From contig JACRKB010000073.1 of assembly GCA_016235545.1 (NCBI GenBank), positions 25,015 through 89,014 on the forward strand: a stretch of 64,000 bases of DNA. Reading direction: 5' to 3'. Each line of letters opens with the position of its first letter. Position 1 is the first letter of the stretch. The notes below the pieces were generated by a model that saw only the letters and a program-made list of their open reading frames with translations, ran no database searches and was not told the DNA's origin. This document shows positions 8,272-30,784 of the stretch, in pieces. Both the position numbers and the translations under genes were made by a program. The DNA is from Verrucomicrobiota bacterium (lineage in GTDB: Bacteria; Verrucomicrobiota; Verrucomicrobiia; Limisphaerales; SXTU01).

Positions 8272-8286
8272 GCCGGGCGCGCAGGT

Positions 8287-8304: not shown

Positions 8305-8435
8305 AAGCAATGATTTCCTTGTCCGGCCTTTCCCATCACTCACTGCCCACCTTCGTTCCTAACCGATTCGCCGGTTGCCTCAGGGCGGGATAGTTCCCTG
8401 CTGTGCGGCCGGCGATTTCCAACCCCGACACCCCC

Positions 8436-11203: not shown

Positions 11204-12022
11204 GTGCGCTGCCCTGCCGAGTGGCGGCTGCTCGGATTCGCGCTGCTTGCGGCGCTCCCCGCTCAGGCGGCGGTAGAAGCCCGTCACGTGCTCTATTTTG
11301 GCGACTCCATCACAGCCGGCAGCGAATTGCCCGCCGACCGCCGACTCATCGATCGTTGGCCCGCGCAGGTGATGGCGCTCTCGCAAGGACGCTTGGTCGA
11401 ATGGAACGAGGGCCTCGGCGGTCGCCCGACCGATGCCGAGGCGGACTTCGCCGCCGCGCTCGCACGTCATCCCGCTCCCGATGCGCTCGTGCTGGCGCTC
11501 GGCACGAACGACTCGCGCGATCTCTCGGCTGATATGGCGCCGAAAGCAGTCGCGCATCTCCGGCGGATGATCGCCGCCGCGCGGGCCGCGCATCCCGCGA
11601 TTAAAATTCTGCTGGCCGGCCCGCCGAACATCGCGCTCGAGCACCTGGGCCCCACCAAGCCGATCGGCCCGCAGCGCGCCGCGAATCTGCGCGCGCTGAA
11701 CGCAGCTTTCGCCCGGCTGGCCCGCGAATCTCACTGCCGCTTCGTCTCGTTCTACGGCGTCGTGCCGCCCGCCAGCTTGGCGAAGGATGGCGTGCATCCC
11801 GACGCCGCCGGCAATCGCGCTCTCGCCGCCGTCGCCCTCCAGGCGATCGAGGCGCTGTTCGCACCGCCCGTCCGGGCTCAGGTCGCAGTCGCGCACGCGG
11901 ACCGCCTCGGCGATCTCCGGGCCCATCGGGCCCTCCCGCGCCTCCACGAGCCGGGTAATCCGCCCGGCTTTGGGGCGGCGACTCCCTTCGGCCCGCGGGG
12001 AGCACCGCCGGTTCCAGCATGA
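11204..12022 (+). CDS. SGNH/GDSL-family hydrolase (esterase), probably secreted
   Basis: Block I is YFGDSITAG (Ser nucleophile), followed by GLGG, GTND and a C-terminal DGVHPD (Asp/His). The putative signal is RCPAEWRLLGFALLAALPAQA. There is no in-frame ATG downstream of the TBDR stop, so GTG 11204 is proposed and the start is uncertain. The stop overlaps the next ATG (ATGA at 12019-12022). Confidence 0.75.
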   Translation: MRCPAEWRLLGFALLAALPAQAAVEARHVLYFGDSITAGSELPADRRLIDRWPAQVMALSQGRLVEWNEGLGGRPTDAEADFAAALARHPAPDALVLALGTNDSRDLSADMAPKAVAHLRRMIAAARAAHPAIKILLAGPPNIALEHLGPTKPIGPQRAANLRALNAAFARLARESHCRFVSFYGVVPPASLAKDGVHPDAAGNRALAAVALQAIEALFAPPVRAQVAVAHADRLGDLRAHRALPRLHEPGNPPGFGAATPFGPRGAPPVPA

Positions 12023-13416: not shown

Positions 13417-15707
13417 TTCTCGCTCCTCCCGTTGCACATCGTTCTCTGCGCCTCGAGCGCTTAGCTGCCGACCTCGTCGTGGCGGGCGGGGGGCTCGCGG
13501 GCACCTGCTGCGCGCTGGCCGCCGCGCGCGCCGGACTGCGCGTGATCCTCGTGCATGACCGTCCGGTGCTCGGCGGCAATTCCTCCAGCGAGGTGCGGCT
13601 GTGGGTGCTCGGCGCCACCTCGCACATGGGCAACAACAACCGCTGGGCGCGCGAAGGGGGCGTCGTCGATGAGCTGCTCTTGGAAAACCAGTTTCGCAAT
13701 CCCGAGGGCAATCCGCTCATCTGGGACACGATCCTGCTGGAAAAGGTGCGCGCCGAGACGCGACTCACCCTGCTGCTCAACACCGCGGTGCACGAAGTGG
13801 ACAAGGCGGACGCCGACACCATTCGCGCCGTGCGCGCATTCTGCTCCCAGAACTCGACCGCCTACGAGTTGGGGGCGCCGCTCTTCGTCGATGCGACGGG
13901 CGACGGCCTGGTGGGATTTCTTGCCGGGGCGGCGTTTCGCCTCGGCGCGGAGTCGCGCGCGGAGTTCGGGGAGCCCTACGCGCCCGCGATGCCGACGCGC
14001 GATCTGCTTGGACATTCGATATACTTCTATTCGAAGGATGCCGGCCGGCCCGTGCGCTTCGTGCCGCCGAGCTTCGCCTTGCGTGACATCGCCCAGGTGC
14101 CGCGCTATCGCGACTTCAACGCCGCCGAACACGGCTGCCGCCTGTGGTGGATCGAATACGGCGGCGTGCGCGACACCGTGCACGACACCGAGGAGATCAA
14201 GTGGGAGCTCTGGAAAGTGGTTTACGGCGTGTGGGACTACATCAAGAATTCCGGCCGCTTTCCCGAGGCGGAGAACCTCACGCTCGAGTGGGTTGGCACC
14301 ATCCCCGGCAAACGCGAGAGCCGCCGTTTCGAAGGCGACTACCTGCTCGTGCAACAGGATATCATCGAGCAACGCCGCCATCCGGATGCGGTTTCGGCGG
14401 GCGGCTGGGCCATCGATTTGCATCCGCCGGAGGGAGTCTTTAGCCCGCAGCCCGGCTGCCAGCAGTGGCATGCGAAGGGCATTTACCAGATTCCGTATCG
14501 CTGCCTTTACAGCCGCAATATCACGAACCTGTTTCTGGCCGGACGCCTCATCAGCGCTTCCCACATTGCGTTCGGCTCCACGCGGGTCATGGCCACCTGC
14601 GCGCACAGCGCGCAGGCGGTCGGAGTGGCGGCGGCGATCTGCCGTCGCGATGGGGTGCGCCCGCGCGACGTGCTCGCCTCCGCCCGCATGGCCGATCTCC
14701 AGCAGCGCCTGCTTCGCGTCGGGCAATTCATCCCGAACGTGCCGTTGCGTGCCCCGACCGATCTCGCTCTCCAAGCTCGCATCCACGCCTCCAGCGTCCT
14801 GCGCCTGGATGCCTTGCCCGCCGGCTCCGAACGGCTTCGGCTGACCGAATCCTGGGCCAGCCTGCTGCCGGTGCCGCCCGGGCCGGCTCCGGTGGTCGAA
14901 TACAAGGTTGATGTCGCCCGCGACACCGAGCTGATCGCCGAGCTGCGCGTCAGCGGCAAGGCATGCAATCACACCCCGGACCGCACGCTCGCCACACTGC
15001 GCCTCCCGCTCAAGGCCGGCAGGGCGCAAACTATCCCATTGCGCTTCGCCGCCGGTTTCGAGCAGGCCTGCTACGCCTTTTATTGCCCCGCAGCCAATGA
15101 CGCAGTGGCGGTGCACTTGAGCGACCGCCGCCTGACGGGAGTGTTGGCGGTGACGCAAAAGTTCAACGCCGCGGTCTCCAGATTTCCGCGGCAGGAGCCT
15201 CCGCCCGGCAGCGGGATCGAAGCGTTTGAGTTTTGGCTGCCGCAACGTCGCCCTCTCGGCAAAAACCTTGCCTGCCGCATCACACCACCGCTCGCGGCAT
15301 TCGAGCCGTCCAACCTGACCAACGGTTTCGCCCGGCCGACGAATCAACCGAACGCGTGGGTCTCGGCCTTCGACGACCCGGCGCCCACGCTCACCCTTGA
15401 GTGGCCGACCCCGGTTCTGCTCGAGCGCATCGAACTGGGGTTCGACACCGATTTCGATCACCCGCTTGAAACCGTGCTCTTGCTTAACCCCGAGACGGTC
15501 TCGCCTTTTTGCGTGCCAGGCGTGCAGGCCTACAATGAAAACGGCCAGCTGTTGGGGGAGATTCGCGACAATCATCAGAGCGTCGCGGCCATCCAGCTGG
15601 TGACAGCAGCCGAAATCACGCGGCTCACCTTGCGCCTGACCCCGCCGGCCGGCGGGGCTCCGGTCGCGCTCCTGCGGCTTTCGTGTTTCGGGCCGGAGGC
15701 GGCGTGA
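13413..15707 (+). CDS. FAD-dependent oxidoreductase (large, ~764 aa) with a C-terminal beta-sandwich-like extension
   Basis: Rossmann dinucleotide motif DLVVAGGGLAGTCCALAAARAG..VILVHDRPVLGGN at the N-terminus, starting at ATG 13413 and overlapping the MFS stop. The track ORF 11787-15707 is an upstream read-through. The C-terminal ~150 aa (NLTNGFARP..NAWVS...PTLTLEWPTPVLLERIELGFDTDFD) resembles a galactose-binding/discoidin-like domain. Confidence 0.85.
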   Translation: MILAPPVAHRSLRLERLAADLVVAGGGLAGTCCALAAARAGLRVILVHDRPVLGGNSSSEVRLWVLGATSHMGNNNRWAREGGVVDELLLENQFRNPEGNPLIWDTILLEKVRAETRLTLLLNTAVHEVDKADADTIRAVRAFCSQNSTAYELGAPLFVDATGDGLVGFLAGAAFRLGAESRAEFGEPYAPAMPTRDLLGHSIYFYSKDAGRPVRFVPPSFALRDIAQVPRYRDFNAAEHGCRLWWIEYGGVRDTVHDTEEIKWELWKVVYGVWDYIKNSGRFPEAENLTLEWVGTIPGKRESRRFEGDYLLVQQDIIEQRRHPDAVSAGGWAIDLHPPEGVFSPQPGCQQWHAKGIYQIPYRCLYSRNITNLFLAGRLISASHIAFGSTRVMATCAHSAQAVGVAAAICRRDGVRPRDVLASARMADLQQRLLRVGQFIPNVPLRAPTDLALQARIHASSVLRLDALPAGSERLRLTESWASLLPVPPGPAPVVEYKVDVARDTELIAELRVSGKACNHTPDRTLATLRLPLKAGRAQTIPLRFAAGFEQACYAFYCPAANDAVAVHLSDRRLTGVLAVTQKFNAAVSRFPRQEPPPGSGIEAFEFWLPQRRPLGKNLACRITPPLAAFEPSNLTNGFARPTNQPNAWVSAFDDPAPTLTLEWPTPVLLERIELGFDTDFDHPLETVLLLNPETVSPFCVPGVQAYNENGQLLGEIRDNHQSVAAIQLVTAAEITRLTLRLTPPAGGAPVALLRLSCFGPEAA

Positions 15708-16191: not shown

Positions 16192-18354
16192 TCAGAATCG
16201 CAGGCCGACGGAAGCCTTCACCCGCCGCGGCCAGCCGCGGGTGATCTGCTTCTCGACGTAGTCCTCGTCGAAGAGATTTTCGACGTTCACCTTGAAGACG
16301 AGCTTCTGGCCGCCGGAGAGCTTGCGCTCGGCGCCGAGCGCCAGATCCACGCGGGTGTAGCTCGGGGCGATCAACTGGAACCGCGCGGCGTCGTGGTCGG
16401 CCACCATGTCGCCGACGTAGATCACGCCGACGCCCGCCCAGAGATTCTTGAATCCGCCCATGTCGGGCAGCGTCTGCTTGGCCCAGATCTTGAACTGGTG
16501 AGTGGGCGCATCGCCGAGGCGCGTGCCGGCGGCCGCAAGGAAGCGAACGTCCGGGATGACATTTTCGGTATCCAAATAGGCGTAGGAGGCGATGACCTCA
16601 GTTTGCGCGGTGAGCTTGGCGTAAAGGTCGAGTTCCACGCCAGTGGCGGTCTGCTTGCCGGCGATACTGGGAACGTTGCGGGCGAGGATCGGGTCGAAGG
16701 CCTGCACCTCGATGCTTTCGCGGGTAGTGTCGAACCAGGCGAGCGTGCCGCTGAGACGCTCGGAGCCGAACTTGAAGCCCGCTTCCCAGGATTTACCCTC
16801 TTCAGGCTGACCGGGAAAGTTGCCGTTGGGGCTGAAGGACTCGCCATACATCGCGTAGGCGGTGAGGTCTTTCCGGATGCGGAACGAGGCACCGATCTGG
16901 GGGCTGGTGTTCCAGGAATTGGAGCCGCTGACGGTGGGCACGGCCGGCTGCAGATTGGTGACCTTGGGCTCGGCGTGGGAACGGCCGACACCGCCCAGCA
17001 ACGTGAGCCGCTCCTGCAGCGTCGTGAGCTGGAGCATCGCGTAGTAGCGCTCGGTCTTGCCCTCGTTGAGCTGGTATTGCGTGCGGCTATAGGCGGAGGA
17101 CGGGAATGGGGGAATATCGTAGGTGCGGGCAGACCGGTCCAACACGGCGAAGGGGCTGCCTGGCGCATTCCACTGGATGGCGCGGGAGTCAGTCTCGCCA
17201 TAAATCTGGCCGATTACCGCCGTGAGCTTGCCGATGGGCAGCTTGAACTGGCCGGTCAGGTCGGTCTGGATGTTCGTGGCCGAGTTTTTGTTATCGTTGT
17301 AAACGGGAGTGGCCGTAACCGCAGTTCCCGCGGCGTTCAGGCCGGCGCCGACGCGGCGGAGGGCATCGTAGTAGGTTTCCGAGTAGGCGGAGCCGTTGCG
17401 GAGCGTCCAGTTTTCAGAGATGTTCCAGATCAGCTCGGTGTAGGTGTTGTATTCGCGGAAGTTGGCGTAGGTGTTCGGACCAGCAGTGTTGTATTCGCGG
17501 TCCGGCATGAGGAAGAAGGCGGGGGTCGCGCCGGGGCCGAGCGGTAGCAGGATGAACGCTTCGGCGTCCTCTTTCTGCCGCAGGTAGCGCTGCTCCACCC
17601 GGAAGCTGAGGCGGCGGCTGCGCCACTCGAGCTGGCCGTTCAGAAGCGTGCGTGAGGTGTGCTCGTAATCGCGGAAACCGCCGCTGTCCTGATAGGCGCC
17701 AATCACGCGGTAGAGCAACTGGCCATCGCCGAGTTTGGCGAGCGGGCCGGTGAAGTCGGCGACGGTGCGGTAGAACTCGTAATCGCCCACCTCGAAGTCG
17801 AGGGAACGCTTGGCCACCGCGAGCGGTTTCTTCGTGACGACGTTGATGCGTCCGCCGGGCTGGCCGTTGCCGTAGAGCAGGCCGGTCGGCCCCTTCAGCA
17901 CCTCGATGCGGTCGTATTCGGCGTTGTCGCCGCGAGCCTGGAGGGCACCCGGGACGTTGAAATAGTTGCGCAGCGGCGCGCCGGCGTTGAAGCCGCGGAT
18001 CGCGAACTCCTCATAGATGTTGGAGGACGAGCGCACGCTGCTGACGTAACGGAGCGCCTCCTGGATGTTGCCCGCGCCGGTGTCGCGGATGAGTTGGTCG
18101 GTCACCACTTGGGCCGAGAAGGGTGCGTCGATCAGCGGGATGTTGACGCGCGTGCCGACCATGGAGTTGGCGACGACATAGGTATCCTCGCCGGACTGGA
18201 CGGTGAAGGGATCCAGCACGTAAACTTCCTCTTTCGCAGGACGTGAGGCCGGCGGTGTCTGGGCGACGGCGGAGATCGAACAGGCGAGCGCGCCGAGCGC
18301 ACTCAGCAGGAAGCGCCGCGCGAACGGCGCGGCGGGAACAGCATGGGGTTTCAT
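16192..18354 (-). CDS. TonB-dependent outer-membrane receptor
   Basis: Signal peptide MKPHAVPAAPFARRFLLSALGALACSISAVAQ (ATG 18354). Plug motifs are present (LDPFTVQ..., IRGFNA, DRIEVLKGPTGLLYG, GGRINVVTKKP). A long beta-barrel ends in ...KASVGLRF (terminal Phe). Confidence 0.9.
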   Translation of the reverse strand: MKPHAVPAAPFARRFLLSALGALACSISAVAQTPPASRPAKEEVYVLDPFTVQSGEDTYVVANSMVGTRVNIPLIDAPFSAQVVTDQLIRDTGAGNIQEALRYVSSVRSSSNIYEEFAIRGFNAGAPLRNYFNVPGALQARGDNAEYDRIEVLKGPTGLLYGNGQPGGRINVVTKKPLAVAKRSLDFEVGDYEFYRTVADFTGPLAKLGDGQLLYRVIGAYQDSGGFRDYEHTSRTLLNGQLEWRSRRLSFRVEQRYLRQKEDAEAFILLPLGPGATPAFFLMPDREYNTAGPNTYANFREYNTYTELIWNISENWTLRNGSAYSETYYDALRRVGAGLNAAGTAVTATPVYNDNKNSATNIQTDLTGQFKLPIGKLTAVIGQIYGETDSRAIQWNAPGSPFAVLDRSARTYDIPPFPSSAYSRTQYQLNEGKTERYYAMLQLTTLQERLTLLGGVGRSHAEPKVTNLQPAVPTVSGSNSWNTSPQIGASFRIRKDLTAYAMYGESFSPNGNFPGQPEEGKSWEAGFKFGSERLSGTLAWFDTTRESIEVQAFDPILARNVPSIAGKQTATGVELDLYAKLTAQTEVIASYAYLDTENVIPDVRFLAAAGTRLGDAPTHQFKIWAKQTLPDMGGFKNLWAGVGVIYVGDMVADHDAARFQLIAPSYTRVDLALGAERKLSGGQKLVFKVNVENLFDEDYVEKQITRGWPRRVKASVGLRF

Positions 18355-18441
18355 GGCGAGGGTCGGGGTTGCGGGCCGTAGCCCGGGGGGGATGACGGGC
18401 GGAGCGAAAGCGCTGGCGCGAGCGGTCGCAAGTCGCCGCCG

Positions 18442-18457
18442 CTCGAACACGTTCGAG
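18442..18457. promoter_or_regulatory. Candidate LacI operator CTCGAA-CACG-TTCGAG
   Basis: 16-bp inverted repeat with 6-nt perfect arms, located in the divergent TBDR/sulfatase intergenic region. It is the exact reverse complement of the site at 21119-21134. Confidence 0.55.
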
Positions 18458-18521
18458 CCCGCGGGATTTGACTGGAGGCTCCGGGTTGCGATGCTTCCGG
18501 CCTCTTCGCTCCCGCCCCCTC

Positions 18522-20033
18522 GTGAAAGCCATCGTAGTCGTTTTCGATTCCCTCAACCGCCATTGCCTGCCGCCCTACGGGGGCGAGGGCGTCCACGCGC
18601 CGAATTTCACGCGGCTGGCGGCGCGCACGGCGCGCTTCGAGGCGTCCTACGTCTGCTCGATGCCGTGCATCCCCGCGCGGCGGGATTTCCTCACCGGCCG
18701 CCCGAATTTCCTGCACCGCAGTTGGGGGCCGATGGAGCCGTTCGACGACGCGTTTCCGGAGATGCTCGGCCGCGCCGGCGTGCACACGCACCTCGTGACG
18801 GACCACCAGCATTACTTCGAGGACGGCGGGCTCAACTACCACACGCGCTACTCCTCGTGGGAGTTCTTCCGCGGCCAGGAAGGCGATCCCTGCTGCGGCC
18901 TCGCCGGCGATCCGTTGTGGCCACCGCGCGCGGCCGGGCAGAACGCCGCGCGCTCCGATCTGGTGCGGCAAGACCTCGTCAACCGCCAGCACCTGCTCAA
19001 GCGCGAGACCGACTGGCCGCAGCGGAAGACCTTCGACGCGGGGCTCGACTTCATCGGCCGCAACCATGCGCGTGACGGCTGGCTGCTCCAGATCGAGACC
19101 TTCGATCCGCACGAACCTTTCTTCAGTCCACCCGAAGCCAAGGCGGCCTACGCCGACCATTTCGCGAAGTATCGCGGCCCCGAGTTCGACTGGCCCGCCT
19201 ACGATGCCGTGAAGGAGGGTCCGGACGAGGTGCGGCATTGCCAGATGGAATACGCCGCGCTGGTCACCTATTGCGACCGCCAGCTCGGCCGCGTGCTCGA
19301 CGCGATGGATGCGCACGACCTGTGGCGCGACACGATGCTCGTCGTGTGGACCGACCACGGCTTCCTGCTCGGCGAGCACGACTGCTGGGCCAAGATGCAT
19401 GTGCCGTGGTATGAGGAACTGGCGCGCACGCCGTTCTTCGTGTGGGATCCGCGCTGCGGCGCCGCCGGCGTCGCCCGGCAGGCGCTCGTGCAGCCGTCCA
19501 TCGACCTCGCGCCCACGCTGCTGGATTTCTTCGGCGTGCCGGCCGCGCCGCACATGACCGGGTGCAACCTCCGCGCCACGCTCGCCGCCGACACGCCCGT
19601 GCGCGACGCCGCGCTCTTCGGCACCTGGGGCGGGCAGGTCAACCTCGCCGATGGGCGCCATGTCTACATGCGGGGCACGCAAAGACCCGGCGTGGCGCTG
19701 CACGAATATACGCTCATGCCGGCGCGCATGCGCCGCCTTTTCTCGCGGGAGGAACTCGCGCCGGATCGCGTCGCACTCTGCGGCCCGCTGCCCTTCACCA
19801 AGGGCATGCCCGTGCTCCGCGTGCGCCACACCGGCGGCCCACTCGACGGCGTCGTGCCGCCGGATAATCCCGAGACTGCGCGCACGCTGCTCTTCGACCT
19901 TGCGCGCGACCCGCGCCAGCAGGCGCCGCTCGCCGACCCCGCGCTGGAGGCGCGGCTGGCCGCGCGGCTCGCCGCCGGGATGCGCGCCGTGCACGCGCCG
20001 CCCGAGCAATTCGAGCGCCTCGGCCTCGCCTGA
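18522..20033 (+). CDS. Cys-type sulfatase without a recognisable signal peptide (predicted cytoplasmic)
   Basis: (V/M)KAIVVVFDSLNRH...YVCSMPCIPARRDFLTGR contains the C-x-P-x-R formylglycine motif followed by LTG. The start is either GTG 18522 or ATG 18468. Neither N-terminus has a hydrophobic h-region or a twin-arginine motif. Confidence 0.85.
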   Translation: MKAIVVVFDSLNRHCLPPYGGEGVHAPNFTRLAARTARFEASYVCSMPCIPARRDFLTGRPNFLHRSWGPMEPFDDAFPEMLGRAGVHTHLVTDHQHYFEDGGLNYHTRYSSWEFFRGQEGDPCCGLAGDPLWPPRAAGQNAARSDLVRQDLVNRQHLLKRETDWPQRKTFDAGLDFIGRNHARDGWLLQIETFDPHEPFFSPPEAKAAYADHFAKYRGPEFDWPAYDAVKEGPDEVRHCQMEYAALVTYCDRQLGRVLDAMDAHDLWRDTMLVVWTDHGFLLGEHDCWAKMHVPWYEELARTPFFVWDPRCGAAGVARQALVQPSIDLAPTLLDFFGVPAAPHMTGCNLRATLAADTPVRDAALFGTWGGQVNLADGRHVYMRGTQRPGVALHEYTLMPARMRRLFSREELAPDRVALCGPLPFTKGMPVLRVRHTGGPLDGVVPPDNPETARTLLFDLARDPRQQAPLADPALEARLAARLAAGMRAVHAPPEQFERLGLA

Positions 20034-20053
20034 ACGGCGCGGGCGCCGCTCCC

Positions 20054-21112
20054 TCACCGCGGCCGGCGTTCGGATGTCGTCGGGCCGTCCTGCCAGCGTC
20101 CTTCGACCAGAGTCGTCTGAGGCAGCACGGGCAGGCCGCGCTCGCCGCGGTAAAGCTGGCCCACCACTACGTCCGCCGCGACCCGCCCGACGACCTCAAG
20201 CCGGTGGTCGTAGCCGGTGCAGGGCAGGCGCGTCATTCGATGCGCGAGGCTGACGAAGCCGACCTCGTCCGGCACCGCGACGCCGATCGCCTCGAGCCAG
20301 TGCAGTGTCTCGTCGCCGAAGCCCAGGATGGCGTCCGGCCGGTGGGCGCGGAACCAGGCGAGGAATTTCTCGCGTTCGTATTCGTCGATGCGGGGGAAGG
20401 GCACGGCGCGCATCGCCGTGGGGCAGCGCTCGAAGTAATGCAGGAAGCCCGCCGTCCACAGTCCCCGGCTGCGCTCTTCGTCCGCGCGGCCGATGTGCAT
20501 GCCCACGCGGCGGTAGCCCAGCCGCTCCAGCCGGAGCAGCACCTCGTGCACGCAGTAGCAGTAATCGTAGAACACGCGGGAGAGGCCGGCGTTGGCCTCG
20601 AAGTAGCCGATCGCCGCGACGGCGAACGGCGCCCAGTTCATGTTCCAGCGGAAAAACGGCGAATGCAGCGGCGCGATCACGAGTCCCTCGATGCCGCGGG
20701 CCACGAGGATCTGGCCGAGGCGCTGGTCGGTCATCGACTCCGGCTGGAAGGAGATCGTCTCGAAATCGAAGCCGAGCTCCTCCGCGCGCTCCTGCGCGCC
20801 GGCCTGGTAGGCGCTGATCACGTTCCAGATGCCCGGCGGCTCCTGCGCGGGCGGACCCCAGGTGTTGACGAAGCCGATGGTCGGACGGTTGCGCGGCGAG
20901 GCCCGGGTGCGGACCTGCATCATGAGCGCGTTGACCAGCGGATTGGGCCGATAGCCGAGCTTCTCGGCGGCGCGCAGCACGCGCTGGCGGGTGCGGGCAT
21001 CGACGTTGCCGAGGTTGCGCAGCGCGAGCGAAGCGGTGGATTTGGCCACGCGCGCCGCGCGGGCGATCTGGGAGAGGGTGACGGGCACAGGCGACCTCCG
21101 GGAGTGGGCCAT
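20054..21112 (-). CDS. LacI-family transcriptional regulator
   Basis: HTH VTLSQIARAARVAKSTASLALRNLGNVDARTRQRVLRAAEKLGYRPNP. Start moved to ATG 21112 (MAHSRRS...); the ORF track extends to 21265. Confidence 0.9.
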   Translation of the reverse strand: MAHSRRSPVPVTLSQIARAARVAKSTASLALRNLGNVDARTRQRVLRAAEKLGYRPNPLVNALMMQVRTRASPRNRPTIGFVNTWGPPAQEPPGIWNVISAYQAGAQERAEELGFDFETISFQPESMTDQRLGQILVARGIEGLVIAPLHSPFFRWNMNWAPFAVAAIGYFEANAGLSRVFYDYCYCVHEVLLRLERLGYRRVGMHIGRADEERSRGLWTAGFLHYFERCPTAMRAVPFPRIDEYEREKFLAWFRAHRPDAILGFGDETLHWLEAIGVAVPDEVGFVSLAHRMTRLPCTGYDHRLEVVGRVAADVVVGQLYRGERGLPVLPQTTLVEGRWQDGPTTSERRPR

Positions 21113-21118
21113 TACGGG

Positions 21119-21134
21119 CTCGAACGTGTTCGAG
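21119..21134. promoter_or_regulatory. Candidate LacI operator CTCGAA-CGTG-TTCGAG (autoregulatory position)
   Basis: Same 16-mer as 18442-18457 in the opposite orientation. It lies 7 nt upstream of the LacI start codon and ~100 nt upstream of the divergent GPH transporter gene. Confidence 0.55.
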
Positions 21135-21234
21135 CGCGAGTCAATTGTTTCCCCGGCTCGGGCCGCCGACACTCGCTTCCCCGCGTTCATCCCCGCCCGG
21201 CCGCTTCCGCGATCACCCGCCACTCCCGACCTCC

Positions 21235-22623
21235 ATGCCCCAGCCGTCCGTCGCCACACCGCCACCCGAGGAGCGCCTCACCGTGGCGCAGAAAACCGCC
21301 TTCGGCCTCGGGTTCACCGGCAACACCCTCATGGGCATCGGCATTGAGACGATGCTCTTCCCGGTGTTCGCGCTTTATCTCGGCCTCTCGCCGCAGGTGA
21401 TCGGCCTCGCCGTCGCCCTGCCCCGGCTGTGGGACGGCGTGATGGACACCGTGATCGGCACCTACAGCGACAATTTCCGCTCCCGCTGGGGGCGGCGCCG
21501 GCCGTTTATCGTCGTCGGCGCGGTGGCGAGCGGCCTCGCCTACGCGCTCATCTGGATGGCGCCGCGCGGACTGGGCTCAAGCGGGCTGACCGCGTGGCTG
21601 CTCGTCACGCTGATCGTGTTCTGGACGGCGAACGCGGCCTTCTTCGTGCCGCTGGAGGCGCTCGGCATGGCGTTGTCGAAACACTACGACGAGCGGACCT
21701 CGCTGATGGGTTTCCGGAGTTTCTTCGCCAAGGTCGGCACGCTGGCCAGCAGTTGGAGTTTCTGGCTGGTCGAGAAGGGCTGGTTCGGCGCCGGGCAGCG
21801 CGGCGCGATCATCGTCGGCGCGATCTGGGGCGTCCTCATCATGCTGTTCGGCGCGTGGCCGGGCGTGTTCCTGCGCGAGCGCGCGGACGCGGCGGCGCCG
21901 CCGGCGGTGAAGTTCTGGCATTCGCTGAAGACGGCAGTGCGCAACGCCTCGTTCCGGCGCATCACCCTCTATCTGCTTTTCATGGCGGCCTCCGTCTCGG
22001 TCTCCTCGGCAGTGCAGTTCTACACGACGCTGTTCTGGGTGGCGCAGGGCGATTCCAAGCTCACCTCGCTGCTCACCGGCGCGGCCAGTTCGCTGAACAT
22101 CGTCTGCGGCATGCTGTCGCTGCCGCTCGTGAGCTGGGGCGCGCGGCACATCGGCAAGCACCGGATGGCGCTGGTGTCGGCCTTCGTCACCGCGCTGGGC
22201 GGGCTGCTCAGCTGGTGGTTCCTCACGCCGGCGCTCCCGTGGCTGTCGCTCGCGGTTGCGCCGTTCTTCGGCATCGGCATCACGGCGGTTTACCAGCTCT
22301 ACTTCGCGATGGTGGCGGACGTAGCGGAGGAGGGCGCGCTGCGCCACGGCGTCCGCAACGAGGGCATGTATTCGGCGATCTCGAACTGCATGATCAAGGC
22401 CGGGCTGGCGCTCTCGTTCGCCCTCGGCGGCGCACTGGTCCACTGGCTGGGTTTCACTGGCAACGACATCCGCCCGACGCCGGAGATGCTCGGGCACTTG
22501 CGTGTGCTGCGCGCGCTCCTGCCGGCGGGCACCGCCGCCCTGGCGATGCTGTTCGTCATCGGTTACCCGCTTACCAAGGAGCGCCTCGAGGCGCTGCGCG
22601 CGCAGGCGGCGCGGCCGGCCTGA
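21235..22623 (+). CDS. Glycoside-pentoside-hexuronide (GPH)/MFS-type cation symporter
   Basis: LTVAQKTAFGLGFTGNTLM...PRLWDGVMDTVIGTYSDNFRSRWGRRRPFIVVG matches the GPH hallmark D-x-x-x-G-x-x-S-D-(x)-R-S-R-x-G-R-R-R-P, with ~12 TM helices. Start at ATG 21235. Confidence 0.85.
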   Translation: MPQPSVATPPPEERLTVAQKTAFGLGFTGNTLMGIGIETMLFPVFALYLGLSPQVIGLAVALPRLWDGVMDTVIGTYSDNFRSRWGRRRPFIVVGAVASGLAYALIWMAPRGLGSSGLTAWLLVTLIVFWTANAAFFVPLEALGMALSKHYDERTSLMGFRSFFAKVGTLASSWSFWLVEKGWFGAGQRGAIIVGAIWGVLIMLFGAWPGVFLRERADAAAPPAVKFWHSLKTAVRNASFRRITLYLLFMAASVSVSSAVQFYTTLFWVAQGDSKLTSLLTGAASSLNIVCGMLSLPLVSWGARHIGKHRMALVSAFVTALGGLLSWWFLTPALPWLSLAVAPFFGIGITAVYQLYFAMVADVAEEGALRHGVRNEGMYSAISNCMIKAGLALSFALGGALVHWLGFTGNDIRPTPEMLGHLRVLRALLPAGTAALAMLFVIGYPLTKERLEALRAQAARPA

Positions 22624-22778: not shown

Positions 22779-24134
22779 ATGAGCATCAAATCCCACCCCC
22801 GCACCTTTCCTCCGCGCTTCGCGTGGGGCGTCGCCACCGCCGCTCCGCAGATAGAGGGCGCCGCCTTCGCCGACGGCAAGGGCGAGTCCATCTGGGACCG
22901 CTACTGCCGCGTGCCCGGCAAGGTGCATAACGGCGACACGCTCGACGTCGCCTGCGACCACTACCGGCGCTACCGGAGCGACGTGGCCCTCATGGCCCGG
23001 CTGGGCGTGAAACACTACCGTCTCTCGCTCGCGTGGCCGCGCCTGCTTCCCCAGGGCCGCGGCCCGGTGAACCAGAAGGGCGTCGATTTCTACCACCGGC
23101 TCCTCGACACGCTGCACGCGCACGGCATCACGCCCTGGGTCACGCTGTTCCACTGGGATCTGCCGCAGGCCCTGGAGGACGAGGGCGGCTGGCGGCGGCG
23201 GACCACCGCCGACGCTTTCGCCGGTTATGCCGACCTCGCCGTCCGCTCGTTCCGCAGCCAGGTGAAAAACTGGATCACGTTGAATGAGACCAATTGCTTC
23301 ACGCGCCTTGCCTACGGCGGCGGCGACAAGGCGCCCGGCGCCAATGACGGCGAGGCCGTCGTCAACCAAGCCTACCATCACGCCATGCTCGCGCACGGGC
23401 ACGGCGTGCGCGCCGTGCGCGAACACGGCGGACGCGGCGCGCGCGTCGGCATCACCGACAACCCCATTGTCTCGGTGCCCGTCACGGAAACGGCGGCCGA
23501 CATCGCGGCGGCGCGCGACCTGTTCCGCTTCGAGAGCGACCGCGTGCTCGGCGCGATCTGCAACGGCCGCTACTCCGAGCGATACCTGCGCGCGGCCGGC
23601 GCGGACGCGCCGCGCTTTGACCCGCGCGATTTCCAGCTGATCGGCCAGCCGACGGACTTCCTCGGCCTGAACATCTACACCGGCCAGTTCGTCCGCGCGG
23701 GCCGGCGCGGACGCCCCGAGATCCTGCCGTTCCCCGCCGGCTACCCGCGCGCCGACAGTCCCTGGCTTTATCTCCTGCCGCAGGCGATGTATTGGGGCGC
23801 GCGTTTCGCCGCCGAGCTGCGCGGCGTCCGCTCCCTCTACATCACCGAAAACGGCGCAGGCTACGACGACGCGCCGCCGGCCGGCGGCGAGGTGCTCGAC
23901 CTGCACCGCCGCGAATACGTCCGCCAGTGCCTCGGCGAACTGCATCGCGCCATCGGCGACGGCGCGCCGGTCGACGGTTATTTCCTCTGGTCGCTGATGG
24001 ACAACTTCGAGTGGCAGGACGGCTACGCCCGTCGGTTCGGCATCGTTTACAACGATTTCGCCACGCAGAAGCGCACACCGAAGCTCAGCGCGCGCTGGTA
24101 TGCCGAAGTGATGAAAACCAACCGCCTGTTGTGA
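22779..24134 (+). CDS. GH1 family beta-glucosidase/beta-glycosidase (cytoplasmic)
   Basis: FAWGVATAAPQIEGA..., HYRLSLAWPRL, TLFHWDLPQALED, acid/base region WITLNETN and nucleophile YITENGAGY. No signal peptide. Start at ATG 22779 within track ORF 21429-24134. Confidence 0.92.
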   Translation: MSIKSHPRTFPPRFAWGVATAAPQIEGAAFADGKGESIWDRYCRVPGKVHNGDTLDVACDHYRRYRSDVALMARLGVKHYRLSLAWPRLLPQGRGPVNQKGVDFYHRLLDTLHAHGITPWVTLFHWDLPQALEDEGGWRRRTTADAFAGYADLAVRSFRSQVKNWITLNETNCFTRLAYGGGDKAPGANDGEAVVNQAYHHAMLAHGHGVRAVREHGGRGARVGITDNPIVSVPVTETAADIAAARDLFRFESDRVLGAICNGRYSERYLRAAGADAPRFDPRDFQLIGQPTDFLGLNIYTGQFVRAGRRGRPEILPFPAGYPRADSPWLYLLPQAMYWGARFAAELRGVRSLYITENGAGYDDAPPAGGEVLDLHRREYVRQCLGELHRAIGDGAPVDGYFLWSLMDNFEWQDGYARRFGIVYNDFATQKRTPKLSARWYAEVMKTNRLL

Positions 24135-24237
24135 ACTCCAACCACCGCCCCTCGAACCCGGCCCCGACGACGCCCGCCTTGCGCCCCGGGAATGGCGGCG
24201 GCCGGTGCCAACGCCACGGGCGCGCAGAGGAGCGGCG

Positions 24238-26064
24238 ATGCAGGAGCTGACCGGAGCTGCGGAGCTGGCGGAGCGCTCGGTCGGGGTCATCGCGCGACGC
24301 CTGCGCGCGAACCTGCGCCCGCCCCTCGCCGCGGAGTTGCGGGGGGCGCGGACATTCGACTGGCGCGCGGATCTCGCGGCCGGCGCCACCGTGGCGTTGC
24401 TGACCGTTCCCCAGTGCCTCGGCTTCGCGCTGATCGTGGGCCTGCCCCTCGATGTGGTGCTGGGCACCGCGGTGATCGGCGCCGTGGTCTGCACGGTGTT
24501 CTCCTCGTCGCGACACCTCGTCTTTGGGCCGACCAACACCATCAGCATCCTGCTCGCGGGCGCGGTTTTCTCCCTCGGCGACGTGCCGCTCACGCCGCTG
24601 GAGAAGGTGCTGCTGATCGGCATGCTCGTCGGCGCCTTCCAACTCGCCGCCGGCTTATCCGGCACAGGCCGGCTCGCCCGCTTCGTCTCGCGGCCCGTGG
24701 TGCTGGCCTACACGACCGGCGTGGGCGTGCTCATCGCCGCCAGCCAGCTCTCGCACCTCCTCGGCATCGGCCGCTCGTCCGATGTCACGCTGCCCGGCAC
24801 AATCCGGCATCTGGTCATCAGCCTGCTGACGTGGGATCTGCACTGGGTGACGTTGCTGGTCGGATTGGGCAGCCTCGCGCTGCTGCTCGTGTTGCGTCGC
24901 TGGCGCCCGGCTTGGCCGGAAGGGCTGATCGTGATGCTGCTGGCGGCGGTGGTTTTCAAGTTCGCGCACGAGCGGTTGCCAGGAGTCATGCTCGTCGGCG
25001 GCATGGACGAGCTGCAATTCCTGCCACACTGGGTCGGCTTGCCGCTCAATCTCGAGGGGCTGGCGCTCGTTCCACGCATCGTGGCCACCGCGCTGGCCAT
25101 CGCCCTGCTGGGGATGCTGGAGGCGGTCTCGATCGCCAAGAGCCTGGCGGCGCGCTCGGGGCAGCGCATCGATCCCGACCAGGAGCTGATCGGCATGGGT
25201 GCCGCCAACATCCTGTGCTCCGCGTTCGGCGCGATGCCCGGCTCAGCCTCGTTCCTGCGCAGCGCCGCCAACCTGCAGAGCGGCGCGCGCTCGCGGCTCG
25301 CGACGGTGCTGAGCTGCAGCCTGATTCCGGTGCTCGTGTTCGCGCTCTCGCCGCTACTCGCCTCGATTCCCGTGGCCACGCTGGCCGCCTACCTGGTGCT
25401 GATTGCCTTCCGCCTGCTCAACCCGCGGCAGGTGACGGTGGTGCGCCGCTCCACGCGCTCCGACGCGGCGGTGTTCTGGGTCACGCTCGGCTCGACGCTC
25501 TTCCTGCCCCCGGACACCGCGATCTACATCGGGGTCGGGCTGTCCGTCGGGCTTTTCCTGCAAAAGGCGAGCGAGCCCTCGCTGGTTGAATACGCGGTGG
25601 ACGAGACCGGGGCGCTGCGGGCCGCCCCCGCCCGCGCCGACGTGCCTCCCCAAATCTCCATCGTGCACGTGGAGGGCGATCTCTTCTTCGGCGCGGCCGA
25701 TCCGTTCCACGACCAGGTCCGGCAGCTCGCCGCCGAGGAACGCATCCGCGTCGTGATCCTGCGCCTGAAGAACGCGCGCCTGATCGACGCCAGCACGGTG
25801 TTGTCCCTGCTGCAGCTCCGCGAATTCCTGCACGGCGGCGGCCGGCACCTGCTGCTCAGCGGCGTGATGCCGCCGGCGATGCGCGTGCTCCGCGAAAGCG
25901 GCGCGCTCGCCGAGCTGGGCGAGGAGAACGTCTTCGTCGCCGAGGAAAATCCCACGGTGAGCACCAAGCGCGCCCTCCAGCGGGCGCAGGCCCTCCTCGG
26001 CGCGGCGCAACCCGAGGTCCGGCTCTTCTACGACACCCTCCCCGCGCCCGCCGGGGCGCAATGA
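24238..26064 (+). CDS. SulP-family anion (sulfate) transporter with a C-terminal STAS domain
   Basis: DLAAGATVALLTVPQCLGFALIVGLP and multiple TM helices, then a STAS-like tail (ISIVHVEGDLFFGAAD...VVILRLKNARLIDASTV). Start at ATG 24238, preceded by GAGGAG. Confidence 0.9.
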   Translation: MQELTGAAELAERSVGVIARRLRANLRPPLAAELRGARTFDWRADLAAGATVALLTVPQCLGFALIVGLPLDVVLGTAVIGAVVCTVFSSSRHLVFGPTNTISILLAGAVFSLGDVPLTPLEKVLLIGMLVGAFQLAAGLSGTGRLARFVSRPVVLAYTTGVGVLIAASQLSHLLGIGRSSDVTLPGTIRHLVISLLTWDLHWVTLLVGLGSLALLLVLRRWRPAWPEGLIVMLLAAVVFKFAHERLPGVMLVGGMDELQFLPHWVGLPLNLEGLALVPRIVATALAIALLGMLEAVSIAKSLAARSGQRIDPDQELIGMGAANILCSAFGAMPGSASFLRSAANLQSGARSRLATVLSCSLIPVLVFALSPLLASIPVATLAAYLVLIAFRLLNPRQVTVVRRSTRSDAAVFWVTLGSTLFLPPDTAIYIGVGLSVGLFLQKASEPSLVEYAVDETGALRAAPARADVPPQISIVHVEGDLFFGAADPFHDQVRQLAAEERIRVVILRLKNARLIDASTVLSLLQLREFLHGGGRHLLLSGVMPPAMRVLRESGALAELGEENVFVAEENPTVSTKRALQRAQALLGAAQPEVRLFYDTLPAPAGAQ

Positions 26065-26128: not shown

Positions 26129-27418
26129 ATGCCGCCCGATTCCACCCGCGCCGATTCCCGCTCCGCCTTCGGCGTGATGACCAAGCCCATCGGGCCGCTC
26201 TGTAACCTCGACTGCGACTACTGCTATTACCTGGAGAAGGCGCACCTCTACCCGGGCGCGTCCAATCCCCGCATGTCGCCCGCGACCCTCGAACGCTACG
26301 TGCGCGACTACATCGCCGCGCAGCCGGGCCCGACGGTCAGCTTTGCCTGGCAGGGCGGCGAGCCCACGCTGCTCGGCGTGGGCTTCTTCCGCGAGGCCGT
26401 CGCGCTCCAGCGCCGCCACGCCGGCGGCAAGCGCATCGAGAACGCCCTCCAGACCAACGGCACCCTGCTCGACGACGAATGGGGCGCGTTCCTCGCCGCG
26501 GAGAATTTTCTCGTCGGCCTGAGCATCGACGGCCCGCGCCATCTGCACGACGCCTACCGCGTGGACAAGGGCCGCCAGCCCACGTTCGACCGCGTGCTCG
26601 CCGGACTCGAGGTGCTGCGCCGCCACCGCGTCGAGTTCAACACCCTCACGACCGTCCACCGGAAGAACTCCGCGCAACCGCGCGAGGTTTACCGCTTCCT
26701 CAAGTCGATCGGCTCGCGCTACCTCCAGTTCATCCCCATCGTCGAGCGGCCCGCGGCGGAGACCGGCGGCGACGAGGGCCTCTGGCTCGCTCCGCCGCCC
26801 GACCACGCCGGGGCAGCCGATCTCGACGGGCACGTTACTCCATGGAGCGTGCGGCCCGCCGACTACGGCCAGTTCCTCGGCACGATCTTCGACGAATGGG
26901 TGCGGCACGACGTCGGCCGCGTCTTCGTGCAGCAGTTCGACGCCGCCCTCGCCAACTGGTGCGGCGAGCCCGCCGGCATCTGCGTGTTCAACGAGAACTG
27001 CGGACACGGCCTCGCCCTCGAGCACAACGGCGACCTCTACAGCTGCGACCACTACGTCTATCCCGCCTACCGCCTCGGCAACCTGCTCAACGACCGGCTC
27101 GGCGACCTGGCCGCCTCGGCCCGCCAGCGCGAGTTCGGCCAGGCCAAGTCCGCCACCCTGCCCCGCTACTGCCGCGAGTGCCCCGTGCGCTTCGCCTGCC
27201 ACGGCGAGTGCCCCAAGCACCGCTTCCTCCGCACGCCGCAGGGCGAGCCCGGCCTCAATTACCTCTGCGCCGGCTACAAGAAATTTTTCCACCACATCGA
27301 CCCTGCGATGACCACCATGGCGGCGTTGCTCCAGTCGGGCCGTGCCCCGGCCGAGATCATGGCGTTGCCCCGCACGCACTGGCTGCCCGGCCGCACCAGG
27401 GCGGGCCGGACGCCGTGA
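26129..27418 (+). CDS. Anaerobic sulfatase-maturating enzyme (radical SAM / SPASM)
   Basis: Radical-SAM cluster motif CNLDCDYCYY, then GGEPTL. The C-terminal SPASM cysteine clusters read C..NENCGHG...YSCDHY and RYCRECPVRFACHGECPKHRF. Confidence 0.9.
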   Translation: MPPDSTRADSRSAFGVMTKPIGPLCNLDCDYCYYLEKAHLYPGASNPRMSPATLERYVRDYIAAQPGPTVSFAWQGGEPTLLGVGFFREAVALQRRHAGGKRIENALQTNGTLLDDEWGAFLAAENFLVGLSIDGPRHLHDAYRVDKGRQPTFDRVLAGLEVLRRHRVEFNTLTTVHRKNSAQPREVYRFLKSIGSRYLQFIPIVERPAAETGGDEGLWLAPPPDHAGAADLDGHVTPWSVRPADYGQFLGTIFDEWVRHDVGRVFVQQFDAALANWCGEPAGICVFNENCGHGLALEHNGDLYSCDHYVYPAYRLGNLLNDRLGDLAASARQREFGQAKSATLPRYCRECPVRFACHGECPKHRFLRTPQGEPGLNYLCAGYKKFFHHIDPAMTTMAALLQSGRAPAEIMALPRTHWLPGRTRAGRTP

Positions 27419-30635: not shown

Positions 30636-30643
30636 GGGAGGGG

Positions 30644-30657
30644 CAACGACGTCGTTG
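30644..30657. promoter_or_regulatory. Perfect 14-bp palindrome CAACGACGTCGTTG in the 5' leader of the large TBDR gene
   Basis: Self-complementary 14-mer located 9 nt upstream of start codon 30635 (minus strand). It could be an operator or an RNA hairpin occluding translation initiation. Confidence 0.3.
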
Positions 30658-30784
30658 TTCCGGAGGCGCTGAGCTGGCAAGGGCATCAGGGGGGGTAGTT
30701 CTACGCATACTCGGAGTCGCCGGGCAAAACCCGCGCTCATCGCACTTGTCTCCCGCAGCGGTCTGTCGAAGATGGCTCCGCATC

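What the first reader, a model, noticed from the sequence alone, without database searches (positions are those of the whole stretch)
18442..21134. Identical 16-bp inverted repeat in two divergent promoter regions defines a putative LacI regulon
CTCGAACACGTTCGAG (18442-18457) and its exact reverse complement CTCGAACGTGTTCGAG (21119-21134) occur only in two places. One is the TBDR/sulfatase divergent intergenic region. The other is the LacI/GPH-symporter divergent intergenic region, 7 nt from the LacI start codon. An exact 16-mer recurrence at two promoter regions 2.7 kb apart is unlikely by chance. It fits a dimeric LacI operator (6-nt arms, 4-nt CG-containing spacer) giving autoregulation plus control of four transcription units.
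Basis: seen in the sequence. Interest (0 to 1): 0.55.

Follow-up and report, generated by a model that had tools for sequence, protein, structure and literature searches.

The report
Conserved LacI operator pair, Lacunisphaera locus
Two copies of a palindromic DNA site flank a LacI-type regulator gene in a sulfatase and beta-glucosidase gene cluster of a Verrucomicrobial bacterium, and they are very probably that regulator's binding sites, which makes this a well-supported but ordinary local gene switch.

Summary
The repeat is a 22-nt perfect inverted match (18440-18461 and 21115-21136). Its heart is an 18-nt near-palindrome, GCTCGAAC-AC-GTTCGAGC. One copy lies between the TonB-dependent receptor and the sulfatase. 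The other lies between a LacI-family regulator and a GPH symporter/GH1 operon.

A repeated 16-mer is not rare by chance in this GC-rich window. The case rests on four other points:
- the 22-nt length of the match;
- its dyad symmetry;
- its position in two divergent intergenic regions;
- conservation.

In three other Lacunisphaera-type genomes (regulator 95, 95 and 79% identical) the 14-nt core TCGAAC-NN-GTTCGA is the most conserved block of both intergenic regions.

I read it as the operator of the adjacent LacI-family regulator, giving an autoregulated local regulon for a small sulfated beta-glycoside.

- the conserved regulator start is GTG 21088, so the site is 31 nt upstream, not 7 nt;
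- the arms are 7-8 nt around a 2-nt centre that is not CG.

At three outward promoters the site sits a fixed 11 nt upstream of conserved TTG hexamers (about -53), so activation cannot be excluded. This is a new member of a known kind, of modest interest.

The parts
18441..18458 (.). Operator O1: GCTCGAACACGTTCGAGC. The conserved core TCGAAC-NN-GTTCGA is 18443-18456. It lies in the TBDR/sulfatase divergent intergenic region.
   Evidence: The core is 13/14 invariant in four genomes, against 29% background invariance.
21118..21135 (.). Operator O2: GCTCGAACGTGTTCGAGC, the same 22-mer as O1 on the minus strand. The core is 21120-21133. It lies in the LacI/GPH divergent intergenic region.
   Evidence: The core is 14/14 invariant in four genomes, against 35% background invariance.
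20054..21088 (-). LacI-family regulator, 344 aa from the conserved GTG at 21088. GGAGG lies at 21095-21099. The alternative ATG at 21112 is not conserved.
   Evidence: PF00356 scores 45.7 bits and PF13377 scores 41.1 bits. The recognition helix and hinge are conserved in the orthologs. The HTH and hinge align to solved LacI/CcpA structures.
16192..18354 (-). TonB-dependent receptor, 720 aa, of the siderophore-receptor-type subfamily. It is monocistronic and is the putative target of O1.
   Evidence: Pfam Plug plus beta-barrel. TIGR01783 scores 249.5, above the 223.5 cutoff. The upstream neighbour on the other strand is a convergent FAD-oxidoreductase-like ORF.
18522..20033 (+). Cys-type sulfatase (CIPAR motif) with no signal peptide, so inferred to be cytoplasmic. 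It is the putative target of O1.
   Evidence: PF00884. It is a distant relative of choline and GlcNAc-6 sulfatases. The start position is conserved: GTG here, ATG in L003.
21235..22623 (+). GPH-family (MFS_2) glycoside:cation symporter. It is the first gene of the operon downstream of O2.
   Evidence: PF13347 at 1.8e-66. TIGR00792-like.
22779..24134 (+). GH1 beta-glucosidase, with no signal peptide.
   Evidence: PF00232 at 3.8e-139. TIGR03356 scores 500.7, above the 478.5 cutoff. It is syntenic after the GPH gene in L001-L003.
24205..26064 (+). SulP-family sulfate permease with a STAS domain. It is on the same strand and may belong to the same operon. It is adjacent in L001 and L002 but not in L003.
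26129..27418 (+). Anaerobic sulfatase-maturating enzyme (radical SAM/SPASM). It is on the same strand and may belong to the same operon.
   Evidence: TIGR03942 scores 499.9, above the 349.45 cutoff. Pfam.
18468..18495 (+). Promoter-like element for the sulfatase: TTGACT (18468-18473), 16 nt, GATGCT (18490-18495). The TTG starts 11 nt after the operator core.
   Evidence: Both hexamers and the spacing are conserved in four genomes. The strict sigma-70 scan did not call it.
18403..18431 (-). Promoter-like element for the TBDR: TTGCGA (18431-18426), 17 nt, TTCGCT (18408-18403). The TTG starts 11 nt after the operator core.
   Evidence: The -10-like hexamer is non-canonical (no A at position 2).
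21145..21173 (+). Promoter-like element for the GPH operon: TTGTTT (21145-21150), 17 nt, GACACT (21168-21173). The TTG starts 11 nt after the operator core.
21116..21144 (-). Promoter-like element for the regulator gene: TTGACT (21144-21139), followed by O2, which occupies the spacer and the -10 position. The -10 hexamer is weak here (GAGCCC) and is GATTCT in L003.
   Evidence: The block AAACAATTGRCTCGC is invariant in four genomes.

Best explanation
The two palindromes are the operators of the LacI-family regulator encoded between them (20054-21088, minus strand). A regulator dimer reads the two TCGAAC half-sites with its helix-turn-helix domains.

At O2 the site sits directly behind a conserved TTGACT hexamer and about 31 nt ahead of the regulator's start codon. 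Binding there would occlude the regulator's own promoter, giving negative autoregulation.

The same two sites also serve three outward promoters: TonB-dependent receptor, sulfatase, and the GPH-GH1 operon (possibly continuing into SulP and the sulfatase maturase). I take repression relieved by a sugar effector as the most likely mode, because that is how most local LacI-family regulators work.

The regulon would import a small sulfated beta-glycoside (receptor, then symporter), desulfate it in the cytoplasm (sulfatase matured by the radical-SAM enzyme), cleave it (GH1), and handle the released sulfate (SulP).

Shown here: the sequence, the symmetry, the gene families, and conservation of the sites and their spacing.
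Inferred: binding by this protein, the sign of regulation, the promoter positions, the effector and the substrate.
For: - The pair is a 22-nt perfect inverted match and each copy is an 18-nt near-palindrome, unique in 64 kb.
- The protein has the LacI HTH (PF00356) and Peripla_BP_3 (PF13377) above cutoff. Its hinge aligns to solved LacI/CcpA proteins with the Leu in place.
- Synteny and both sites are kept in L001, L002 (95% identical regulator) and L003 (79%). The 14-nt core is 14/14 and 13/14 invariant, while 65-71% of the other intergenic columns vary.
- The only substitution within the 14-nt core, GT to GG in L003, is in the central 2 nt.
- The recognition helix KSTASLALRN and the hinge are conserved with the core.
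- Site centres lie 38.5, 72.5, 95.5 and 108.5 nt from the four start codons. The family norm is 30-140 nt, 72% of members are autoregulated, and 96% of motifs are even palindromes (PMC4052901).
- A paralog in the same window has its own unique palindrome, TTGGTGAA-CGTT-TTCACCAA, 15 nt upstream of its start.
- No Rfam family, terminator or tRNA explains the sites.
Against: - There is no binding or expression data.
- Only four closely related genomes carry the system. The next homologs are 40% identical or less, so the footprint is shallow.
- The symmetry centre is AC/GT/GG. The CG centre is found in 1173 of 1303 LacI-family regulators.
- At three of the four promoters the site lies 11 nt upstream of the conserved -35-like hexamer (centre about -53), not over the promoter. 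This is not the classical occlusion geometry and in CcpA is associated with activation (PMC3463425).
- A genome-wide count of the motif could not be made. Only 64 kb plus about 13 kb per ortholog were available.
Confidence: 0.8

Rival explanations
1. Same protein and same sites, but with dual action. The regulator represses its own promoter by occlusion at O2. From a fixed position about -53 it activates the three outward promoters, in the manner of CcpA at ackA/pta or a class-I activator. At O1 a single dimer on the dyad would serve two back-to-back promoters symmetrically.
For: On three of the four outward flanks, TTG begins exactly 11 nt after the 14-nt core, followed 16-17 nt later by a conserved hexamer. 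This holds in all four genomes without indels. The probability of TTG at one shared offset on at least 3 of 4 composition-matched random flanks is about 2e-4. Fixed, helix-face-specific spacing is what activators need and repressors do not. In CcpA, cre sites upstream of -35 activate and sites overlapping the promoter repress (PMC3463425).
Against: - The promoter hexamers are inferred. The strict sigma-70 scan finds none and no transcription start sites are known for this phylum here.
- The TBDR -10-like hexamer TTCGCT is non-canonical.
- Most local LacI-family regulators are repressors.
- From my own knowledge, GalR at -60.5 represses galP1, so an upstream position does not imply activation.
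Confidence: 0.2
2. The palindrome is the binding site of a different transcription factor encoded elsewhere, and its position next to the LacI gene is incidental.
For: No direct link between the protein and the site can be computed. The non-CG centre is atypical for LacI-family sites.
Against: - One site is kept directly upstream of the LacI gene in all four genomes, the usual signature of autoregulation.
- An even palindrome with AA-N4-TT spacing fits the family.
- The paralog has an analogous site at its own gene.
- Both target regions flank the regulator gene.
Confidence: 0.1
3. The pair is a non-regulatory repeat: a chance match, a remnant of duplication or gene conversion, or a dispersed REP/MITE-type element.
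For: Repeated 16-mers are expected by chance here (mean 11.6 per window). The exact 16-mer occurs in at least 120 unrelated metagenomic contigs. The identity beyond the palindrome (CG...CCCG flanks, same centre orientation) suggests a common origin of the two copies.
Against: - A 22-nt exact repeat is expected only 0.1 times per window.
- The pair is palindromic and is the most conserved block of two otherwise diverged intergenic regions.
- The outer flanks vary in L002 and L003 while the core stays the same.
- There are only two copies in 64 kb. The window's real dispersed repeat (39602 and 46329) looks quite different.
- The metagenome hits are single-copy and none encodes a relative of the seven locus proteins.
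Confidence: 0.04
4. The site is a LexA/SOS-type box. It superficially resembles the Gram-positive CGAAC-N4-GTTCG box.
For: It shares the CGAAC/GTTCG half-sites (sequence).
Against: The spacer is 2 nt, not 4 nt, which puts the half-sites on different helix faces. No DNA-repair gene is adjacent. The motif for this phylum, as I recall it, has the opposite arm order (own knowledge, not tested).
Confidence: 0.01

Closest known systems
Local LacI-family sugar regulons with an autoregulated divergon, for example AglR/ThuR-type regulators that control their own gene plus a divergently transcribed operon (RegPrecise reconstruction, PMC4052901)
   Same: Shared features are an HTH_LacI plus periplasmic-binding-protein-like regulator and an even palindromic operator of 14-18 nt. 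A site sits upstream of the regulator's own gene. The targets are transporters and a glycoside hydrolase next to the regulator, and the sites lie 30-140 nt from start codons.
   Different: - The symmetry centre is AC/GT/GG, not CG. This is a minority class: 49 different and 29 degenerate of 1303 regulators.
- The phylum is Verrucomicrobiota.
- The targets include a TonB-dependent receptor, a cytoplasmic sulfatase and possibly its radical-SAM maturase.
- The effector domain is too diverged to match any solved LacI-family structure by sequence.
CcpA at activated promoters (ackA, pta, ilvB) in Bacillus subtilis
   Same: A LacI-family dimer site lies upstream of the -35 hexamer. The dependence on position and helix face is documented (PMC3463425).
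   Different: CcpA is a global regulator and needs HPr-Ser-P as corepressor. Here the regulator is local with only two sites, and the promoter positions are only inferred.
GalR/OE and IdnR of E. coli (own knowledge, not checked here)
   Same: GalR binds at -60.5, upstream of the promoter. IdnR acts positively on a divergent idnK/idnD region from one site. Both belong to the LacI family.
   Different: GalR repression also uses a second, intragenic operator and HU-mediated looping. This protein lacks a LacI-type C-terminal tetramerisation helix (sequence), and the two operators are 2.66 kb apart.

Membership tests
LacI/GalR-family regulator with its operator | N-terminal HTH_LacI DNA-binding domain | tested here: met
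   PF00356 scores 45.7 bits against a cutoff of 27, over residues 12-57. It aligns to 3kjx and to CcpA structures.
LacI/GalR-family regulator with its operator | C-terminal periplasmic-binding-protein-like effector domain | tested here: met
   PF13377 scores 41.1 bits against a cutoff of 26.5. The match is weak: no solved structure matches this domain by sequence and there is no NCBIfam hit.
LacI/GalR-family regulator with its operator | Hinge helix with a conserved Leu that inserts at the operator centre | tested here: met
   YRPNPLVNALM aligns with YRPNAVARGLA of CcpA and YVPNKIAGALA of 3kjx. It is conserved in the orthologs and in the paralog. The insertion itself is not testable here.
LacI/GalR-family regulator with its operator | Even palindromic operator of about 14-22 bp | tested here: met
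   The site is an 18-nt near-palindrome with 8-nt arms, and the conserved core is 14 nt. The family norm comes from PMC4052901.
LacI/GalR-family regulator with its operator | CG dinucleotide at the symmetry centre | tested here: not met
   The centre is AC/GT in seven sites and GG in one. A CG sits one position off-centre. A non-CG or degenerate centre occurs in 78 of 1303 family members, so this is atypical but not excluding.
LacI/GalR-family regulator with its operator | Site upstream of the regulator's own gene and of adjacent catabolic or transport genes, conserved in orthologous loci | tested here: met
   Four genomes are covered and the core is the most conserved block in both regions.
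LacI/GalR-family regulator with its operator | Specific binding of the protein to the site, released or induced by a small-molecule effector | not testable with these tools
   This needs EMSA or footprinting with the purified protein and candidate sugars.
LexA (SOS) box of the CGAAC-N4-GTTCG type | 4-nt spacer between the GAAC and GTTC arms, with sites upstream of lexA/recA-type genes | tested here: not met
   The spacer is 2 nt. The neighbours are transport, sulfatase and glycosidase genes.
Dispersed intergenic repeat (REP/MITE-like) | Many copies spread over unrelated intergenic regions | tested here: inconclusive
   There are only two copies in 64 kb, and two (one in L003) within 3 of 16 mismatches to the 18-nt pattern, or two per locus by the exact 14-nt core, in each 13-kb orthologous locus, both at the same places. 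A whole genome was not available.

The most novel reading that the evidence does not exclude
A LacI-family dimer bound on a single dyad acts as a stereospecific activator of promoters placed at an identical distance. TTG begins 11 nt from the core, putting the site centre at about -53. This holds for both back-to-back promoters at O1 and for the GPH promoter at O2. The same O2 site represses the regulator's own promoter. The result would be a symmetric bidirectional activation design in a phylum whose promoters are essentially unmapped. It would switch on cytoplasmic desulfation and cleavage of a small sulfated beta-glycoside.
Probability: 0.2. Interest if true: 0.55.

Novelty: new member of a known kind. 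Interest (0 to 1): 0.3.

Why it matters
It gives a concrete, testable operator (TCGAAC-NN-GTTCGA) and a four-unit regulon for an uncharacterised LacI-family regulator in Verrucomicrobiota (Lacunisphaera, Opitutaceae). As far as I know (not checked here), few transcription-factor sites and no promoter maps exist for this phylum.

It also links several genes into one co-regulated module:
- a small TonB-dependent receptor;
- a GPH symporter;
- a signal-peptide-less Cys-type sulfatase;
- a GH1 beta-glucosidase;
- in some genomes, a sulfate permease and a sulfatase maturase.

This points to cytoplasmic catabolism of a small sulfated glycoside, and it offers a handle for finding the substrate, because the effector of the regulator should be the substrate or a product.

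The conserved TTG hexamers at fixed spacing provide candidate promoter elements for this group. None of this changes how LacI-family regulation is understood unless the activator reading proves true.

Tried and rejected
- **Metagenome scan for the exact 16-mer.** None carries the 22-mer and none encodes relatives of the locus proteins. These are chance occurrences.
- **Search for more orthologs of the regulator.** Only clusters at 95%, 100% (partial) and 79% identity exist, then paralogs at 40% or less. Deeper phylogenetic footprinting is therefore impossible.
- **Upstream regions of five paralogs at 36-40% identity: L004, L007/L008, L009, L011.** They show no shared motif with this operator. 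L007 has GGGAGCGCTCCC and L009 has ATTCG-AAC-CGAAT. Paralogs do not help define the motif.
- **Strict sigma-70 promoter scan.** It found no hits, so the promoter hexamers I propose rest on conservation only.
- **Terminator scan.** Hits were at chance level and did not resolve operon boundaries.
- **Rfam and tRNA scans.** Nothing was found.
- **Weaker operator copies in the window.** All candidates with 2-3 mismatches are in coding sequence or in a convergent spacer and occur at chance frequency. None lies upstream of the second TBDR, SulP, the maturase or the TBDR paralogs.
- **LexA-box and REP-element readings.** Both were rejected (see the rival explanations).
- **Looping between O1 and O2 by a tetramer.** I consider this unlikely, because the protein ends without a LacI-type C-terminal heptad helix.
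Full report
**1. Observation**

The 16-mer CTCGAACACGTTCGAG is at 18442-18457 (+) and its reverse complement is at 21119-21134. Allowing 3 mismatches gives no further copy in the 64-kb window.

The match is longer than reported. It is a 22-nt perfect inverted pair, CGCTCGAACACGTTCGAGCCCG, at 18440-18461 and 21115-21136. Each copy is an 18-nt near-palindrome, GCTCGAAC-AC-GTTCGAGC, with 8-nt arms and only the two central bases asymmetric. Scanning for the 18-nt palindrome, the next-best site in the window has 3 of 16 mismatches.

**2. Is it more than chance?**

First-order Markov sequences of the same composition carry on average 11.6 repeated 16-mers per 64 kb, 1.2 repeated 18-mers and 0.1 repeated 22-mers. 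The window does hold other exact repeats of 20 nt or more. By my comparison of the list with the gene calls, these lie in coding sequence (paralogous genes, internal repeats) or in the GH1 remnant. The exact 16-mer also turns up in at least 120 unrelated metagenomic contigs. Each has one copy, none carries the 22-mer, and none encodes a relative of the locus proteins.

The pair is significant for other reasons:
- the match is 22 nt long;
- each copy has dyad symmetry;
- both copies sit in divergent intergenic regions;
- above all, both are conserved.

**3. Context**

GC3 frame analysis, Pfam and NCBIfam give these genes:

| Coordinates | Strand | Gene |
|---|---|---|
| 16192-18354 | - | TonB-dependent receptor (passes the TIGR01783 subfamily cutoff) |
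| 18522-20033 | + | sulfatase with a CIPAR Cys-type motif and no signal peptide |
| 20054-21088 | - | LacI-family regulator |
| 21235-22623 | + | GPH/MFS_2 symporter |
| 22779-24134 | + | GH1 beta-glucosidase (passes the TIGR03356 cutoff) |
| 24205-26064 | + | SulP/STAS permease |
| 26129-27418 | + | anaerobic sulfatase maturase (passes TIGR03942) |
| 27468-30740 | - | a second, larger TonB-dependent receptor, convergent |

The gene upstream of the first receptor, on the other strand, is a convergent FAD-oxidoreductase-like ORF, so that receptor is monocistronic. The sulfatase and the regulator converge.

The organism is a Lacunisphaera-type member of the Opitutaceae, Verrucomicrobiota.

**4. 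Comparative evidence**

The regulator has very few orthologs. Protein clusters exist at 95%, 100% (partial) and 79% identity, and then nothing above 40%. Three genomic loci were retrieved: L001 and L002 at 95% and L003 at 79%. All keep the synteny receptor / sulfatase / regulator / symporter-GH1.

Both sites are present in all of them. In alignments of the two intergenic regions, the 14-nt core TCGAAC-NN-GTTCGA is the single most conserved 14-column window. It is 14/14 invariant upstream of the regulator and 13/14 invariant in the receptor/sulfatase spacer. Background invariance is 35% and 29%. The only substitution inside the core is in the central dinucleotide, GT to GG in L003. The outer G/C and C/G pairs of the 18-mer vary in L002 and L003. 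The functional unit is therefore the 14-nt core with a free centre. The 22-nt identity in this genome is partly shared history.

The regulator's recognition helix (KSTASLALRN) and its hinge (YRPNPLVNALMM) are conserved along with the core.

**5. Corrections to the reading**

The ATG at 21112 is not conserved. It is ATC in L002 and absent in L003. The GTG at 21088 is conserved in all four, and a GGAGG lies 6 nt upstream of it in the window, L001 and L002 but not L003. The site therefore begins 31 nt, not 7 nt, upstream of the start.

The centres of the two sites lie 38.5 nt (regulator), 108.5 nt (symporter), 72.5 nt (sulfatase) and 95.5 nt (receptor) from the start codons.

**6. Fit to the LacI family**

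A large reconstruction of 1303 LacI-family regulons (PMC4052901) reports:
- 72% of regulators are autoregulated;
- 1251 of 1303 motifs are even palindromes of 16-22 nt;
- more than 75% of sites lie 30-140 nt upstream of the start codon;
- 1173 have a central CG, 49 have another centre and 29 have a degenerate centre.

This site meets all of these except the central CG. Its AA-N4-TT spacing is the family's, but the symmetry centre is AC/GT/GG, with a CG one step off-centre. The hinge Leu that contacts the centre in solved complexes aligns correctly.

There is an internal control. A second LacI paralog in the window (7231-8271, minus strand, 30% identical) has its own unique palindrome, TTGGTGAA-CGTT-TTCACCAA, at 8286-8305. 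It lies 15 nt upstream of that gene's ATG. The geometry is the same GAA-CGTN-TTC, the outer bases differ, and the two proteins differ at recognition-helix positions.

**7. Mechanism**

On the regulator's strand, a conserved TTGACT (TTGGCT in L002 and L003) lies 5 nt before the core, inside the invariant block AAACAATTGRCTCGC. The operator therefore occupies the spacer and the -10 position of the likeliest promoter of the regulator gene. This implies autorepression by occlusion (inferred).

On the other three flanks the picture is different and strikingly regular. Exactly 11 nt after the core comes TTG, and 16-17 nt later comes a conserved hexamer:
- sulfatase: TTGACn, then RATnCT;
- symporter: TTGTTT, then GACACT (GACCAT in L003);
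- receptor: TTGCGA/TTGAGT/TTGCCC, then TTCGCT.

This holds without indels in all four genomes. TTG at one common offset on at least three of four composition-matched random flanks has a probability of about 2e-4.

If these hexamers are -35 and -10 elements, the operator centre is at about -53 at all three promoters. At O1 one dimer would then sit on the dyad between two back-to-back promoters.

The strict sigma-70 scan calls none of these hexamer pairs, so the promoters remain inferences from conservation.

An upstream position is compatible with repression. From my own knowledge, GalR at -60.5 is an example, and blocking of the alpha-CTD/UP region is another route. However, in CcpA sites upstream of -35 activate while sites over the promoter repress (PMC3463425).

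I commit to binding by the adjacent regulator (0.8). Within that, repression of all four units, relieved by an effector, is the more likely mode. The dual repressor/activator reading stands at about 0.2.

**8. Function of the regulon (inferred from families)**

- The small receptor and the GPH symporter import a small glycoside.
- The signal-peptide-less Cys-type sulfatase, matured by the radical-SAM enzyme, desulfates it in the cytoplasm.
- GH1 cleaves a beta-glycosidic bond.
- SulP handles the sulfate.

SulP and the maturase are adjacent in L001 and L002 but not in L003, so they may not be core members. The sulfatase is only distantly related to characterised enzymes such as choline and GlcNAc-6 sulfatases, so no substrate can be named.

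**9. Rivals**

- **Another regulator's site (0.1).** This is disfavoured by the conserved autoregulatory position and by the paralog analogy.
- **A non-functional repeat (0.04).** This is disfavoured by the footprint and by the two-copy distribution.
- **A LexA-like box (0.01).** The spacing and the gene context are wrong.
- **RNA explanations.** No Rfam family, tRNA or terminator accounts for the sites. A 2-nt centre cannot form a hairpin loop.

**10. Verdict**

This is a new, well-defined member of a very well-known kind of system. Interest is modest (0.3). The only unusual features are the non-CG centre and the fixed position of the site upstream of the -35-like hexamers.

Noticed in passing
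window 7231-8305: A second LacI-family paralog lies at 7231-8271 on the minus strand and is 30% identical to the regulator of the finding. It has its own unique 20-nt palindrome, TTGGTGAA-CGTT-TTCACCAA, at 8286-8305, 15 nt upstream of its ATG. It sits in the divergent spacer next to a GH16/Golvesin_C gene (5442-7355) and an 880-aa ORF with no Pfam hit (8440-11079). It is probably a second local regulon.
   Followed up: partly
window 4931-5039: A 109-nt remnant of a GH1 gene, 87% identical to 23301-23406 of the intact GH1 and including an exact 26-mer. It lies in the convergent spacer between an ABC-2 permease gene and the GH16 gene.
   Followed up: partly
window 39602-39713 and 46329-46407: Two copies of a short repeat with the ends TTGTCATCGCGAG...CTCGCAATGACAGG. 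The second copy lacks a 33-nt central piece. It looks like a small dispersed repeat unrelated to the operator.
   Followed up: partly
window 50673-52937 and 56601-58862: Two paralogous TonB-dependent receptor genes 5.9 kb apart, with 72-79% identical DNA segments. They are also related to the regulated receptor at 16192-18354 (143-nt segment, 76%). No operator-like site lies upstream of either.
   Followed up: no
window 5447-6253: Internal direct repeats of about 420 nt period (76% identical) inside the GH16/Golvesin_C gene. They correspond to two Golvesin C-terminal domain copies.
   Followed up: no
L007 2330-2400 and 255-268: In a marine metagenome contig a 39%-identical LacI paralog is followed by a PAS/AraC regulator and a sulfatase. 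Two copies of the palindrome TTTAACCAATATGGTTAAA lie upstream of the sulfatase. A different palindrome, GGGAGCGCTCCC, lies upstream of the LacI paralog.
   Followed up: no
L003 8768-13012: In the 79% ortholog locus the regulated receptor is followed by a tandem paralog (74% protein identity to the window's receptor). The SulP and maturase genes are not next to GH1. The operon content therefore differs between species.
   Followed up: no
window 13419-15707: An ORF of about 760 aa with an N-terminal FAD-binding GGGxAG motif follows the MFS transporter gene (12019-13416). Its GC3 (about 0.72) is lower than that of its neighbours, so the simple GC3 filter missed it. It was not scanned against Pfam.
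   Followed up: no
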